This document shows, one piece after another, positions 31,501-40,500 of a stretch of 64,000 nt of DNA (its first letter is position 1; every line of letters starts with the position of its first letter). The stretch comes from an uncultured candidate division Zixibacteria bacterium (GTDB lineage: Bacteria; Zixibacteria; MSB-5A5; GN15; PGXB01): the NCBI GenBank assembly GCA_963702205.1, contig OY969724.1, positions 3,488,001 through 3,552,000 of the forward strand, given 5' to 3'. Made by a program: the position numbers.

Positions 31501-34500
31501 GTATATGAAATATTTCGTTTCTTTGGTCGGCCAGTCCGAGGCATATATATCGTGTGGATAGGCCAGCCAAAAATAACCGCCGGTTCGCACGATATAATAC
31601 ATATAACTGGCCTTATCGAGATTCGGAGCGTCCAGCCTGAATCGAAAGCGCAGAGTGGTATCGTTTATTTCGGCCTGGCTGTCGATTCCCGAAGGAACTC
31701 CCGCGGCATATTCCTCCACATGATACACTGCCGGAGACAGACAATCCGGCTTGAAGCCAATACCGTCATATTCAATCCCCAGCCGGTCAGCCTCTTTAAT
31801 GGACGCCGGCAGCCATAAACCCGCGGCGGATTCATAATTGCTGGACGAAATCAGGTCCAGGTAATAACCGATGGTTTCCCTGGCCACGTTGATGTAGGGG
31901 TTTTTGGCCAAAACCGGGGCTGCCACGAGCCAGCCCGCAAAACAAATCGTAAAAATAACCCGGACTATTTTATTAATCATAATTTCTCCCGTGAATAGAA
32001 TATACGGTTCAATATAGCCTATTTTACCCTAAAAGACAAAGAATGTCCGAAAAAAAAGCCCCGATTTTGTCGGGGCTTTTAAGCGGATTAATTGATTTCT
32101 TCAAAAGCTGACGCTGGCCGAGAATTTATGAACCGACTCCAATCGACCGAAATCGACCCAGGCATAGTCGAGCGTCAGACGGGTATTTTCGGTCAGGTTG
32201 GTCTTAAGACCGCCGCCGAAACTGAAATTTTCCTCGTCGAAGTTGACCTTGTAACCTGAACGGAGGAAATATTTATCATTCCAACTGTATTCGGCACCGA
32301 GCGATCCCTGTTGTTCGTGATCATTGGGATGCTTGGCTTCGACAGCCAGCAGCAGATTCGATTCCGGTCCGAAATCGACGTCATATGCCATACCGACCCG
32401 GAACGTAAGAGGAAGGCTGTATCCTTCCACCTTCAAACGGCTGTCGAAATTATCATTATTGGGATTGGTGGCTTGGTCAGGGTCGTAGGCAACGTTAAGG
32501 TCAGGACCGTCGAATTTCAATTCCGGCCCCATGTTGGAAATATTCATACCCAACCGAAGCGTCCGCCAGCCGGTATAAAGCAGCGTGCCGAAGTCGAAGG
32601 CAATACCGGAGGATTTCTCGCGGTAAATTTCCTCTCCGACGTACTTCATACTGGCCCCGAAGGCAAACTGGTTGGTCATGTAGCGGGCAAAGCTGATCTG
32701 AAAAGCATACGACGACGCGGAATAATATTGTCCCGTGCCGTTTTGCTGATCCTGAGCCACACCCGTAATTTCCTGGTCGCCCATCGACAGAATGGTCGCC
32801 GAGACACCAAAGGTCCCGATGTCCTCGAAATTCTGGGCATAAGCGACGTAGTTAAGGCTTATATCGGCCACGTAACTTACATGAGCGAAAGCCACTTCTT
32901 TGCTGGTAATCTGCGACAGCCCGGCCGGGTTCCAATACATGGCATAGATGTCTTCCACGGTCGGAGTGGCCGCTTCACCCATGGCGTTGTACCTGGAGCC
33001 GACGCCTATTTTAAGGAACTGCGCGCCGGACGTGCCAACCTTGGAAAAGTCACTGGCGACAGCCGTCCCGCAGAGAATGGCCATCAGCACTACAGCTAAT
33101 ATTATCTTAGTCATGGCGTTTCTCCTACTTTATGACGGCAAACCGCCCGGTGCGGTCGCCATATTTCGATTCAATGTGATAAAGGTAAATACCGGATGCA
33201 ATCGACAATCCGGCATCCGACAACATGTTCCATTGATACGTGCCGCCCGTCCCGTAGTGATTGGCGGTCTTGACGAGATCCCCCGCCAGGGTGTAAATCC
33301 TGAGCGTGCATTCGTCGGGAAGATTGATGAAATTCAATTCTCTTTCGTACTCACCATATTCCTGACTTTGATGCGCGAGATACGGGTCGGGATATACCCT
33401 GATTTTATCCATTTCATTTCTGGCTGATGCGGGATTGACGCCGTCGACGCTGAATACGAACTCATCGTCGGCCCCGTTCAACGGTGCACCTTCAATGGTA
33501 TAAACGTCGCCGCTATTATAATCGGTATTGTACGGGTCAACAGCGAAAAACCAGACGTGGTTATATGGAAATGCCTCAGGATGTGGGTCGCCGTCGTACG
33601 GCGTATCGACAATCGAAATATAATCGCCCGCGTCTGGATTCCATTGACCGTCGTCATCCCAGTCATATATTTCCGCATTGACCTGCTGGTTGAAAGTCGT
33701 GTTCCAGACTTCGAATGGCAATGGTATTACGGACGTATGGTCAAACATGAGAAATCCATCTTGCCCGGTTTCCGTGAACCTCAGTTCATAAGTACTGCGG
33801 AAATGCTTGTTGCCGCCCAAAGGCAGTCCAAAGACATAATCGAGATCGCCGAGGAAATCGTACATGGCAATGGTCGTATCACCCGGTACTCCGAACTCCG
33901 TCTGGCCCATATCGCGCGGGACGCGGTCTCCGTCACGGACGACAATTCTGATACCATCGCCGACGGGGTACAATCCCGGTTCGGCCGTAGGGGATTGCAG
34001 GGTTTGCTCGACCAATACGGTATCGTGATTGGTCATATCTTCCAGGTTCCAGTAGGTCTGGTAATCATCTTCAGTAAAAAATACCCTGTATTCACTGCCC
34101 TGTACCAGGTTTTCCTGGAATCGGATCGGATAAACGGCACCTTCCGAAGGCTGATCGTTACCCGTATAATTGTGATCTATCGTCGAATAAGCATCGAAAA
34201 AGCCGGCGGGATCGCTTCGGGGAACCATTTTAACCGCATTCTGATCGAAACCGGGTGTACCGAAACCGTTCTGCAAGGCACCGATCGGCACCGTACTGTC
34301 ACCGCCGTCGAAAGCCACGAGGCAGTACCAGTATTCGGTTCCGTTGGTCACCGTGGAATCGATAAACGAATGGGATATCGGGTCCCCGGCTTCTTCGACA
34401 CCGTACGCCGCGACCGGGTAATAATCGAAGCCGAGGCAGTCATAAATCTGCGTCTCATCTCTATGACCCCAGGTATAGCCGCGATTGTCGGAACGATATA

Positions 34501-37500: not shown

Positions 37501-40500
37501 ATACCGGTCAACTTCATGTTCGGAGTCGGCTGCCAGTTCAATTTGGCCGTATGCGTCCAGCTCTCACCTTTATTATGTGGCAAATAGCCGTCATCCCGCA
37601 GCCATTCACTGGCGACGAAAAAGGTCGCCTTATTCGATGTCAACAAAGGAAGCGGCCCTGATAAATTGTAGCTGACGGTATTGTTGTTCGTCCGGGCCAG
37701 GCTCTTGAATGAACCCGTATTTACGTCCCAGGGACGAGTGTAACCGTCATACATCTTAATTTTGCCGTGATAATCTCGGGATCCTTCCTTGGTTACGGCG
37801 TTGACGACACCGGACATCGCCTCGCCGTACTCAGCGGTGAAACCACCGGATGTAAGGTTAAGTTCTTCGAGGGCGTCGGGCATAATTCTTATTCCCGCGA
37901 TATCATAGAATGGGTCCTGTACCGAAAAACCTTCGTACGTATACGAGACCTGCCCGTCGCGGCCACCGCGAACGTGGAAACCGTTATCCCGGTCAACTAC
38001 CGTCCCCGACATATTAGCCAGGATGGCCTGAACCGTGACGGAATTGGGAATTTCGGCCATGCGATCACTGGTCACGATGGAGCGAGACGCCGTGAGGTCG
38101 CGTTGGATGGGATCGCGCTCGGCGTAAACCTTGATCTGACGTTTGAGCGGCATATCGACTTGCTGGATTTCAAAATCGACCGGAGTCGTCAGGTCGAGAA
38201 GAACGCGTACGTCCTGTTTTTCCAGCTCGCCGAAACCCATCATGGTGACCGACAGGTTGTACACCCCGGCGGGTAAATTCAAGAAGTAGTACTCGCCGTC
38301 GGCGTCGGTTTGCGTGACGAAGTCGGTTCCTTCGACACGGATAGTGGCTCCCGGTATCGGTTCACCGGATTTGCCGTTTTCCACAATACCGGCAATCTTG
38401 CCGGTAGTACCTGCCCGTACCATCGGAGGCAAAACAATCGTGCACATCAACAGGAAAACGGGAAGTACAACTACAGTTTTTTTTAGGGTAGTCAAATCAT
38501 ACCTCCGTACAATTGTTAATTATTTTTATGCTCATTTATAATTCGCAAAATGCGATCCAATACAATTCATGTGACATATTTCGCCACTTTCATTTTATCG
38601 ACGTCTCTTCGATTAACTTTATAGGTCTTGCCCGATGCGAACCGGCAATTTTCATCGTAATTTTGACAAAGTTGTCAATTATTGAGCGGCAGGGCCGTCA
38701 AGTTTCGTCGCAATCGCCCGATAAAGATAGGGTGACTCAATAAATACAAGGATTTGGACGAGACAGTGATAAAAGCGTGCCGCGGCATGCTCTTTTATAA
38801 AGCTACTTGGTTTATGATTAACCGATCACTTCTTATAGCATTGGCCGTGGTTCTCCTGGCAGGGAGCGTAAGCGCCCAGGGCGCCAAGCTGGTCATTGTC
38901 TTTTCGGATAGTCTGAAATCAACCCAAAGAACCATCAGGGGCATTACTTCAACCATCGAGCAGGGCTGCCAGAATTGCGAATTCCACGAATTTCTACTCG
39001 AACGCGACACCGATCTTATCTCGGGTCAGATAAGCAGGATTAAGGCCCTCAATCCGGCGCTTATCGTCACGGTCGGTTCGATGGCGACTCAGATCATGTC
39101 CGACAAAATAACCGACCGGCCGATAATCTTCTCAGCCGTCCTCAATCCGGAAACATCGGGATTTGTCAAGTCACTGGCCAGGCCGGGAAAAAATATCACC
39201 GGGGCGTCGCTGGATATTCCATTCGACATCCAGTTCACCTATTTCAAACAGGTTATCGGAGGTTTGAAAAAAATCGGTGTATTGTATACGACGGAAACGG
39301 CTAATTTGATCCCCCCGGCCAAAGCCCTGGCCCATACCGAAGGACTGGAGCTCGAAGCCATAGAAGTAAATTCAGAAAAAGACATCCCCTCGGCCCTGGA
39401 AAAATTGATCGGCGACGTCGACGGCATCTGGTCGGTGGCCGACGCGCACATTTTTACGCAACGTTCGACAAAGTTCATTCTCTTAAATACATTGCGGAAC
39501 GGTGTCCCGTTCATGGGATTTTCCCGCAATCTGGTCGAATCGGGAGCCCTCTTCGCGCTTGATTTCGATTACAAGGACATCGGCCGTCAATCCGGCGAAA
39601 TCGCTTTGCGCGTTCTGGGCGGCCAGCCGGCTTCCAATATTCCCGTCGCCGTTCCCCGCATCCGCTGGTTCCATTACAACGAAAAGACCGCCAAACATAT
39701 AAATGTCAAGATTCCGGATGAACTGGTGGCCGTAGCCAAGGAGGTTTATCGATGAGCTTCTTTGGTTCCATCAGCCGCTTTGCCCTGCGCGGGAAATTCG
39801 TCCTGCTGGTTTCGGTCGTGACAATCGCCAGCATGCTGATTATTTCCGGCTACCTGATTAAGCGTCAGGGTGTCATTTATCATGACGAGCTTGTCAAACG
39901 CGGAGAAAATTTGGTTTCCAACCTGGCGTATAACGCCGAGTACGGGGTAATTCTGGAGTCGTCCTCCGAACTGGAAAACCTCATTCGCGGCGCGGCCCGT
40001 GCCGATGATATCGTCTATATTGCCATTTCCTCGTCCGACGGCCGCATTTTGGCTAAAACCGGAGCGAATTACGGCGATAACGGCCGAACCATCGATAAAG
40101 ATATTTACAGCCCTTCGAATGACCAGAAGTTCCGGTACCGTCAATTCATTTCCTCCAATAATATCGAATATGTCGAATTAATATATCCGGTTGAAACGCA
40201 AAGGATGTCGGTTTCCAAGGAAAACCTGGGATCATTGTACTCCGATGCCGAAGACACCGCCGTCATGGAAAAAATCGGCGAGGTCAAGGTTTGTGTGACA
40301 CTGGAAAATCTCAACAAGGAAATCGACAAGTCCGAAACGACGTCGACTCTGCTGGCCATACTGGTCATAATTTCCGCCATTATAATTATGTCGGCTTTCG
40401 CCAGGGTTATCACCCGCCCGATAGAAACGCTGGCCACCGTCACGGATCAGATATCCAAAGGCGATCTGACAAAAACGGTCGACATCAACCGGTCCGATGA

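What a model noticed while it worked through the whole genome (the two positions that open the first line are those of the whole stretch)
32101..38495. Ten PorV paralogues with dedicated cargo; TonB receptor-T9SS cargo-PorV cassettes replace SusCD in a SusD-less phylum
The genome has ten PorV-family barrels, six of them in an operon with a protein bearing a type IX secretion tail. One conserved cassette joins a TonB-dependent receptor, a 890-aa tailed protein of no known family and its own PorV (g03044-g03042). With no SusD protein in the genome, PorV-held secreted proteins are the likely surface partners of these receptors.
Evidence so far: Profile search: ten PorV-like genes with E at most 1e-31; g03042, g01838, g01839, g01722, g02423 and g00790 share an operon with a gene ending in a T9SS-type tail. 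A tail profile finds 63 proteins, 20 beyond the Pfam calls, among them six paralogues g02209-12, g00440, g03043; no SusD/RagB family in the Pfam table. 4-14 PorV-like matches in each of 13 genomes searched. Receptor-cargo-PorV order in 8 of 8 regions around g03042 homologues from four families; in G009 cargo plus PorV are duplicated as a unit behind the receptor, and in G007 a g02211-like cargo sits between the g01812-type receptor and its PorV. No paper on this in one search.
(Added by a program. Inside this text positions count along the whole contig: contig position 3,488,001 is position 1 of the stretch shown here. "Call 12" and the like, gene names such as g00115 and contig names such as C1 are that model's own, and its searches are not shown. 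The text may have been shortened before it was handed on; [...] marks where a part breaks off. The agent that wrote the report below was given it as the finding of a first reader that could run no searches.)

Follow-up and report, generated by a model that had tools for sequence, protein, structure and literature searches.

The report
TonB importer with barrel-anchored surface partner
Three adjacent outer-membrane genes (an energy-driven importer, a large secreted protein of no named family, and a dedicated barrel that probably holds that protein by its secretion tail) form a fixed unit in Zixibacteria and related phyla, and probably do the nutrient-capture job that the lipid-anchored SusC/SusD pair does in Bacteroides.

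Summary
The cassette is real: TonB-dependent receptor (893 aa), 892-aa secreted protein, PorV/PorQ-family barrel, 10 bases apart. In three locus sets picked by the middle gene alone, a receptor lay upstream in 171 of 171 and the barrel downstream in 164 of 164 testable loci, including other phyla. Receptor and partner occur in the same 89 of 121 phylum genomes; SusD and SusC in 0 of 121. The partner is no lipoprotein. It folds as a beta-supersandwich plus sandwich domains and ends in a distinct tail resembling the uncleaved PorU/PorZ tails. The five orphan paralogues are displaced partners of a second receptor: 27 of 30 loci outside this order keep one inside the operon. Relatives sit among glycosidase, peptidase or peptidoglycan-recycling genes. 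Best reading (0.55): an uptake module whose surface partner is barrel-anchored; direct contact and substrate are inferred. Corrections: nine barrels pass the curated cut-off, three are probably the ordinary attachment complex, and only 2 of about 9 receptors have a barrel. No paper found in 10 searches. This scan found the cassette before on other DNA (19 notes).

The parts
35814..38495 (-). TonB-dependent receptor, 893 aa: signal peptide, carboxypeptidase-regulatory-like N-extension, plug, beta-barrel, C-terminal Phe; not SusC family
   Evidence: Pfam PF13620, PF07715, PF00593 over cut-off; no TIGR04056 match; model pLDDT 83.9 matches FptA, Cir, BtuB with target TM 0.7-0.8
38121..38135 (-). 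TonB-box-like strand just before the plug (residues 121-125)
   Evidence: V123 and A125 kept in 62 of 63 orthologue rows; reading it as the TonB box is inference from position
33125..35803 (-). 892-aa secreted protein of an unnamed, very large family; Sec signal peptide, no lipobox
   Evidence: no Pfam hit; 1,158 clusters at E<=1e-30; lipobox-like pattern in 1 of 121 homologues; model pLDDT 86.9
34634..35701 (-). N-terminal beta-supersandwich domain (residues 35-390), like the non-catalytic N-domain of GH15/GH94 enzymes; most conserved part
   Evidence: VIA-align Z 20.8, rmsd 3.0, 252 aligned to 9ju0; mean conservation 0.73 against 0.58-0.66 for the other domains
34214..34627 (-). fibronectin-III-like sandwich (residues 393-530), kept in the shortest 615-622-aa family members
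   Evidence: inferred from the strand pattern, Atlas fn3 cluster at 0.91, domain hits of the short members; not folded alone
33125..33427 (-). T9SS-type C-terminal tail of a distinct class, closest to the PorZ and PorU tails
   Evidence: Z 13.2, rmsd 1.7, 93 aligned, 25% identity to PorZ 5m11; NF052228 E 1.3e-7; class profile 133.7 bits; below the type A cut-off, no type B hit
32101..33114 (-). PorV/PorQ-family barrel, 337 aa, of the receptor-linked subfamily
   Evidence: NF033709 216 bits; PorV, PorQ and PorV2 equivalogs all below cut-off; groups with 68 other cassette barrels, support 99/89
30391..31980 (-). loosely linked downstream gene, 529 aa; many orthologues carry an HExxH motif that this copy lacks
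   Evidence: 39 homologues in the loci examined, 21 with HExxH; no Pfam family

Best explanation
An outer-membrane uptake module in which a T9SS-exported protein takes the place of the SusD lipoprotein. Step 1 (families shown, export inferred): the 892-aa protein crosses the inner membrane by Sec and the outer membrane through SprA, led by its tail. Step 2 (inferred from PorZ-PorQ): its own PorV-like barrel picks up this tail class and keeps it uncleaved, so the barrel is shuttle and permanent anchor. Step 3 (inferred, weakest): the barrel docks beside the receptor and holds the supersandwich domain at the receptor mouth, where it captures a large nutrient (peptide, peptidoglycan fragment or glycan, by cassette type) that TonB-ExbBD then pulls through the plugged barrel. 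For the window copy the substrate is not known; peptide is the best guess.
For: Order receptor > partner > barrel in 171/171 and 164/164 testable loci picked by the partner alone and in 9 of 9 testable further loci. Receptor and partner orthologues in the same 89 of 121 genomes, same family pattern. SusD 0/121, SusC 0/121, SusD 0/5 in cassette-bearing genomes of other phyla. Relatives sit where SusC/D would: beside GH97 and GH5, alpha-amylase, LacI with CBM20, chondroitinase B, M14/M20/S8 peptidases, or amidase, NlpC/P60, S66 and epimerase genes. Own tail class whose best PDB matches are PorU and PorZ (E 0.034, 0.061), and these tails are not cleaved (PMC10947112, passages). Own barrel clade. 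Second receptor: partner inside the operon in 27 of 30 loci outside the order; where it has left the operon it is still kept in all 67 genomes of the order, 2-8 matches each. Precedents: a PorV co-purifies with a TonB-dependent receptor (PMC8564354, passages); a FadL-family barrel docks on BamA and holds a surface canopy (PMC12611786, passages).
Against: Gene order shows co-expression, not contact. No receptor-partner fusion among longer proteins (1 hit, no Pfam family; weak test). No glycosidase near the window copy, which is single-copy and sits among housekeeping genes like a core gene. Family members do stand without receptor or barrel: five in this genome, three arrays in relatives and one lone gene. 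In 12 of 40 second-receptor loci the receptor stays with the barrel and a lipoprotein but no partner, so the lipoprotein could be the true lid there. The supersandwich also occurs in ordinary type A cargo, e.g. behind a subtilase, so it is no receptor-specific docking domain. The tail-to-PorU/PorZ matches are weak.
Confidence: 0.55

Rival explanations
1. Same uptake locus, but the secreted protein is an accessory binder or enzyme (SusE/F/G-like) held on its barrel near the receptor without forming a lid; the receptor imports on its own.
For: The supersandwich fold includes catalytic members (aldose epimerases, GH174 fucanase at Z 13.3) and occurs in other cargo. Partners expand to several diverged copies per genome against one receptor. 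Many TonB receptors work without a lid (established knowledge; about 7 of 9 here have no barrel).
Against: Accessory genes of uptake loci vary, whereas this one never leaves its place in the three sets examined and is lost only with its receptor. No catalytic (alpha/alpha)6 barrel in the model; family-wide conserved residues are mostly Gly, Pro, Asp, aromatic.
Confidence: 0.22
2. The receptor is part of the secretion machine (PorF-like): it couples TonB energy to release of the barrel-bound cargo from SprA in a T9SS that seems to lack the GldLM motor, and the cargo is an adhesin or surface protein with its own job.
For: GldL, GldM, GldN not found in this genome and GldM_1st in 0 of 121, while SprA and PorU are present. 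PorF is a TonB-receptor-like T9SS component and its homologue co-purifies with PorV (PMC8564354, passages). Receptor and barrel stay adjacent even where the partner has moved.
Against: No positive control passed the cut-off in the motor searches, so absence is not shown. Eight other barrels and more than 40 ordinary tailed proteins have no linked receptor. Catabolic neighbours fit import. Kinship of this receptor to PorF was not tested.
Confidence: 0.13
3. The trio is a sensing, adhesion or export device: the receptor signals or exports, and the displayed protein is an adhesin or sensor.
For: Divergent sensor-kinase genes face the cassette in the window; two other barrels here are TPR fusions beside SpoIIE phosphatases. 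Diversifying arrays of surface proteins also fit adhesins. TonB-receptor-like exporters are recalled from memory, not tested.
Against: No STN signalling domain among the Pfam hits. Catabolic neighbours change with cassette type.
Confidence: 0.1

Closest known systems
SusC/SusD (RagA/RagB) importer-lid pairs of Bacteroidota
   Same: TonB receptor with N-terminal extension followed at once by a gene for a surface protein; found in catabolic loci; co-occurring as a pair.
   Different: Receptor is below the SusC model; partner is a beta-rich, tail-exported protein, not a helical lipoprotein; a third gene (barrel) is part of the unit.
PorZ-PorQ and PorU-PorV of the T9SS attachment complex (Porphyromonas gingivalis)
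   Same: PorV/PorQ-family barrel paired with one T9SS protein whose tail is neither type A nor B and is not cleaved (PMC10947112, passages); the tail here matches PorZ and PorU best.
   Different: There the held proteins attach cargo to LPS and no TonB receptor is in the unit; this genome has its own PorU and PorZ-like genes elsewhere.
Type B CTD substrates with cognate PorP/SprF shuttles (Flavobacterium johnsoniae)
   Same: Substrate and dedicated shuttle encoded side by side; orphan substrates share a distant shuttle (PMC12618676, abstract and discussion), as the five orphans here would.
   Different: Shuttle is PorV/PorQ family, not PorP/SprF; tail has no type B match; third partner is a TonB receptor, not PorE or the gliding track.
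BamG (BamF)-BamH on BamA in the Bacteroidota BAM complex
   Same: FadL-family 14-strand barrel docked on a larger barrel, holding a surface protein with its outer loops (PMC12611786 and bioRxiv 2025.01.31.636011, passages).
   Different: Held protein is a lipoprotein and the big barrel is an insertase; only an architectural analogy.
PorF (PG0534) and CHU_1606
   Same: TonB-receptor-like protein tied to the T9SS; CHU_1606 co-purifies with PorV (PMC8564354, passages).
   Different: No dedicated cargo-barrel operon described in the passages seen; sequence kinship not tested.

Membership tests
TonB-dependent transporter | plug domain plus large beta-barrel, C-terminal Phe | tested here: met
   PF07715 and PF00593 over cut-off; fold matches; F893 invariant
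TonB-dependent transporter | TonB box, and TonB-ExbBD in the genome | tested here: met
   conserved VxA strand before the plug (identity as TonB box inferred); three TonB_C genes beside ExbB and two ExbD
SusC/SusD system | receptor of the SusC/RagA subfamily (TIGR04056) | tested here: not met
   no match for the window receptor; 0 of 121 genomes at 1e-60
SusC/SusD system | partner is a SusD-family lipoprotein | tested here: not met
   no Pfam hit; lipobox-like pattern in 1 of 121; beta fold
SusC/SusD system | receptor gene directly followed by the partner gene | tested here: met
   171 of 171 testable loci
SusC/SusD system | partner is a hinged lid that binds the substrate | not testable with these tools
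   needs a structure or binding assay
PorV/PorQ family | NF033709 above cut-off | tested here: met
   216 bits against 90
PorV, PorQ or PorV2 proper | equivalog model above cut-off | tested here: not met
   86.9/250, 92.1/220, 75/325 bits; separate clade
T9SS type A substrate | TIGR04183 tail above cut-off | tested here: not met
   17.8 bits against 23; 21.9 in the genome search
T9SS type B substrate | TIGR04131 tail and a PorP/SprF neighbour | tested here: not met
   no hit at E<=0.1 for this protein; neighbour is PorV family
T9SS substrate (any class) | signal peptide and C-terminal CTD fold | tested here: met
   PorZ match Z 13.2, rmsd 1.7, 93 aligned; signal peptide read from the sequence
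T9SS (complete machine) | SprA translocon and PorU in the genome | tested here: met
T9SS (complete machine) | GldL/GldM motor and GldN ring | tested here: inconclusive
   not found, but no control passed the cut-off; GldK not searched
GH15/GH94 glycoside hydrolases and phosphorylases | catalytic (alpha/alpha)6 barrel behind the N-domain | tested here: not met
   model is beta-rich beyond residue 390; matches cover about 34-391 only
PorF | sequence kinship to PG0534 | not tested
   no reference sequence fetched; no PorF model appeared

The most novel reading that the evidence does not exclude
An undescribed three-protein importer shared by several phyla related to Bacteroidota, in which the T9SS builds the lid: a dedicated PorV-like barrel docks on the TonB receptor and clamps an uncleaved, tail-exported capture protein over it. 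In this order of Zixibacteria the lid of the second receptor has left the operon and multiplied, so one receptor-barrel dock takes several interchangeable lids with different specificities.
Probability: 0.4. Interest if true: 0.85.

Novelty: new variant of a known kind. Interest (0 to 1): 0.7.

Why it matters
Zixibacteria, Ignavibacteria and Marinimicrobia degrade organic matter, yet the genomes searched here show no SusC/SusD, the marker used to find their relatives' uptake loci. If this trio is their counterpart, it gives a new marker for uptake loci in those phyla, a role for a family of more than a thousand unnamed protein clusters, a third tail class with its own shuttle subfamily, and a link between type IX secretion and nutrient import. 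It can be tested in cultured Ignavibacteria.

Tried and rejected
Complex prediction, receptor barrel 243-893 with partner 41-388: no verdict, score 0.00, controls not folded; no evidence either way; plug, later domains and the PorV barrel were left out by the size limit. Co-variation between the three proteins on 63 paired rows: effective number 41, within-protein control no better than noise; dropped. RNA runs for the region: none was listed. Promoter and terminator scan: counts near the shuffled means, 16 against 12.0 and 10 against 10.2. PDB sequence search with the whole partner: 0 hits. Atlas search of the N-domain among named clusters: no usable hit. Locus search with the wide alignment gave no pattern; with P0200 no relative. 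Test that PorV-adjacent genes avoid canonical tails: 1 of 39 canonical against 4 of 23 other tails lie within 3.5 kb of a barrel, p 0.059, crude pattern; not claimed. Apparent lack of the second receptor in family f9 (0 of 4) was a threshold effect: 3 loci show the full order and one is cut. Two loci that seemed to lack the barrel (L022, L061) had it under a longer antisense ORF. The 935-aa TTG start is rejected: it overlaps the receptor gene, and orthologues begin at the later ATG. Glycoside-hydrolase reading of the partner rejected (no catalytic barrel). Domains 540-790 were not folded alone, so nothing is said about their fold. Paper searches without a description of the cassette.
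Full report
What is in the window. Three minus-strand genes follow each other with 10-base gaps: a receptor (35814-38495), a secreted protein (33125-35803) and a barrel (32101-33114). The receptor has an N-terminal carboxypeptidase-regulatory-like domain, a plug and a TonB barrel; its model resembles FptA, Cir and BtuB and it has no SusC match. The barrel passes the PorV/PorQ family cut-off but none of the PorV, PorQ or PorV2 cut-offs. 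Homologue names point to Zixibacteria. The genome has SprA, PorU and a TonB-ExbBD cluster.

The middle protein. It has a signal peptide, no lipobox (pattern in 1 of 121 homologues), no Pfam family and no PDB sequence match, yet its profile finds 1,158 clusters at E<=1e-30. The model (pLDDT 86.9) starts with a beta-supersandwich, residues 35-390, like the non-catalytic N-domain of GH15/GH94 enzymes (Z 20.8, rmsd 3.0, 252 aligned); their catalytic barrel is missing. An FN3-like sandwich follows (inferred), then residues 540-790 that the shortest members lack (615-622 aa), then a tail matching PorZ (Z 13.2, rmsd 1.7, 93 aligned). The supersandwich is not private to this family: weaker copies occur in seven other proteins of the genome, and a relative's copy lies behind a subtilase.

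A separate tail class. A profile from 118 tails of other genomes scores the window protein and its five paralogues at 116-134 bits and the other 56 tailed proteins at 49.6 or less. The tail is under the type A cut-off and has no type B hit. Its best PDB matches are PorU and PorZ, weakly (E 0.034 and 0.061). PorU and PorZ keep their tails, and PorZ is held on the surface by PorQ (PMC10947112, passages). Retention on the barrel is therefore inferred, not shown.

Gene order. Loci were picked by the middle gene only: the best 80 of 157 orthologue hits, 20 distant paralogues chosen by hand from the list, and the best 80 of 219 hits of a distant member, in records titled Ignavibacteria, Marinimicrobia and a few Bacteroidota. 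Leaving out loci cut by a contig end, the receptor was upstream in 78/78, 20/20 and 73/73 and the barrel downstream in 72/72, 19/19 and 73/73. Nine of 9 testable new loci of a fourth query agree, one of them frameshifted. Kin are not independent. Receptor and partner orthologues are each found in 89 of 121 phylum genomes, with the same tally in all 18 families; this reflects a few gains or losses, not 121 events. In a tree of 79 barrels, the 69 receptor-linked ones form one group (99/89), apart from the genome's other eight; several of those have long branches.

SusC/SusD. PF07980 and PF14322 were not found in any of 121 genomes searched, nor TIGR04056 at 1e-60; the Bacteroides control rang each time. 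Five cassette-bearing genomes of other groups also gave 0 of 5 (completeness not given). Earlier scan notes report the cassette across Bacteroidota; I did not find a genome with both systems, and did not sample enough to exclude it.

The second receptor and the orphans. The genome's second barrel-linked receptor (C1:2109938) is followed by a barrel and an 834-aa probable lipoprotein, with no partner. I fetched 40 loci of its 117 carriers. All 10 from this order lack the partner; 27 of 30 from outside have a protein like the orphans directly behind the receptor, 24 of them then the barrel and 3 cut. Family f9 adds 3 full loci. All 67 genomes of the order still hold such proteins, 2-8 matches each, split hits included; in this genome and in 3 of 3 relatives examined they lie in tandem arrays without receptor or barrel. 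So the orphans are most simply displaced, multiplied partners (42-69% identical here) of one receptor-barrel pair. This parallels orphan type B substrates that share a distant shuttle (PMC12618676, abstract and discussion). Against a strict lid role: these genes do live unlinked, one distant member stands alone (L251), and the lipoprotein could be the lid instead. In 4 loci from two lineages partner plus barrel are duplicated; the barrel copies are about 100% identical in DNA, reaching into the end of the tail in three, while partner bodies are 40-80% identical. That suggests gene conversion; assembly artefact was not excluded, and it is weak support for tail-barrel pairing.

Substrate hints. 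Neighbours of 14 loci from other groups (59 of 76 neighbour proteins and controls scanned) include GH97 with GH5, alpha-amylases, LacI with CBM20, chondroitinase B and M14, M20, S8 peptidases, but also plain housekeeping genes. Among Zixibacterial paralogues (33 proteins scanned), amidase, NlpC/P60, S66 carboxypeptidase, enolase-family epimerase and alanine racemase genes recur, which fits peptidoglycan-fragment uptake. The window copy has no glycosidase nearby; its downstream gene has an HExxH motif in 21 of 39 homologues but not here. Peptide is a guess.

NF033709 gives nine barrels over the cut-off and a tenth at 67 bits. Of the six beside a tailed gene, one is next to PorU and two follow a PorZ-like gene, probably the ordinary attachment complex; two are PorV-TPR fusions beside SpoIIE phosphatases. 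Seven PF00593 genes plus two more plug-bearing genes give about nine receptors, of which two have a barrel.

Mechanism and rivals. Best reading (0.55): tail-led export, capture and retention by the dedicated barrel, docking beside the receptor, capture of a large nutrient for TonB-driven import. Shown: families, order, co-occurrence, tail class, barrel clade, lack of SusC/D matches. Inferred: export, retention, contact, binding. Precedents: PorV co-purifying with a TonB receptor (PMC8564354, passages), and a FadL-family barrel docked on BamA holding a surface canopy (PMC12611786 and bioRxiv 2025.01.31.636011, passages). Rivals: accessory binder or enzyme without lid contact (0.22); PorF-like receptor serving secretion in a T9SS where GldL, M and N were not found (0.13, no valid positive control); sensing, adhesion or export (0.10).

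Literature. Ten full-text searches listed no description of the cassette; Zixibacteria with type IX secretion gave 0 papers. A 2026 review of glycoside transporters has no occurrence of T9SS (PMC13543919, term search). Other papers seen as passages only: PMC10994853, PMC9143113, PMC5317091, PMC11205867, PMC12204202, PMC13440311. I read no supplements; distribution tables of the BAM papers and closed preprint supplements may bear on novelty, and most subscription journals are outside the library. The scan itself holds 19 earlier notes on such cassettes in at least 17 other genomes; they are unchecked and are not counted as evidence. Verdict: a real, widespread, apparently undescribed module built from known parts; a new variant of the importer-plus-surface-partner theme, not a member of SusC/SusD.

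Noticed in passing
L243:925-15915 and L244:1807-10506 (G000:C1 near 0.93 Mb and 2.81 Mb): Two loci join large tailed surface proteins, a PorV-TPR fusion, a membrane SpoIIE phosphatase with HAMP and anti-sigma or STAS-type genes: possibly surface sensing through a PorV barrel.
   Followed up: partly
L083:4834-7557 (G000:C1:2007833-2010556): The PorV beside PorU is 907 aa, with about 580 residues, carrying a propeller-repeat match, inserted inside the barrel sequence.
   Followed up: partly
whole genome G000 and 121 phylum genomes: SprA and PorU are present but GldL, GldM, GldN were not found; if real, this T9SS has another energy source. No valid positive control.
   Followed up: partly
L116, L117, L119, L138: Tandem partner-plus-barrel duplications with identical barrel DNA and diverged partner bodies.
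   Followed up: partly
window 30391-31980: 529-aa secreted protein whose homologues often carry HExxH while this copy does not; a paralogue lies at G000:C1:2868017.
   Followed up: partly
window 38754-43901: Divergent cluster: ABC-type substrate-binding protein, Cache-HAMP sensor kinase, response regulators; the last kinase seems split over 42217-43901 into three ORFs. Genes of like size and direction face the cassette in many relatives; homology not tested.
   Followed up: no
L081:9393-11897: 834-aa probable lipoprotein of no known family follows the barrel in nearly all second-receptor loci.
   Followed up: partly
L086, L089, L090, L096, L104, L105: Cassette paralogues lie among peptidoglycan-recycling genes (amidase, NlpC/P60, S66, epimerase, racemase).
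   Followed up: partly
window 20637-23039: 800-aa protein with FG-GAP-like repeats and an endosialidase-chaperone (Peptidase_S74) domain.
   Followed up: no
G000:C1:547494-550031 and 2412734-2415271: Two 845-aa tailed proteins with the same tail sequence at distant places: recent duplication or assembly duplicate; the genome is listed at 7.69% contamination.
   Followed up: no
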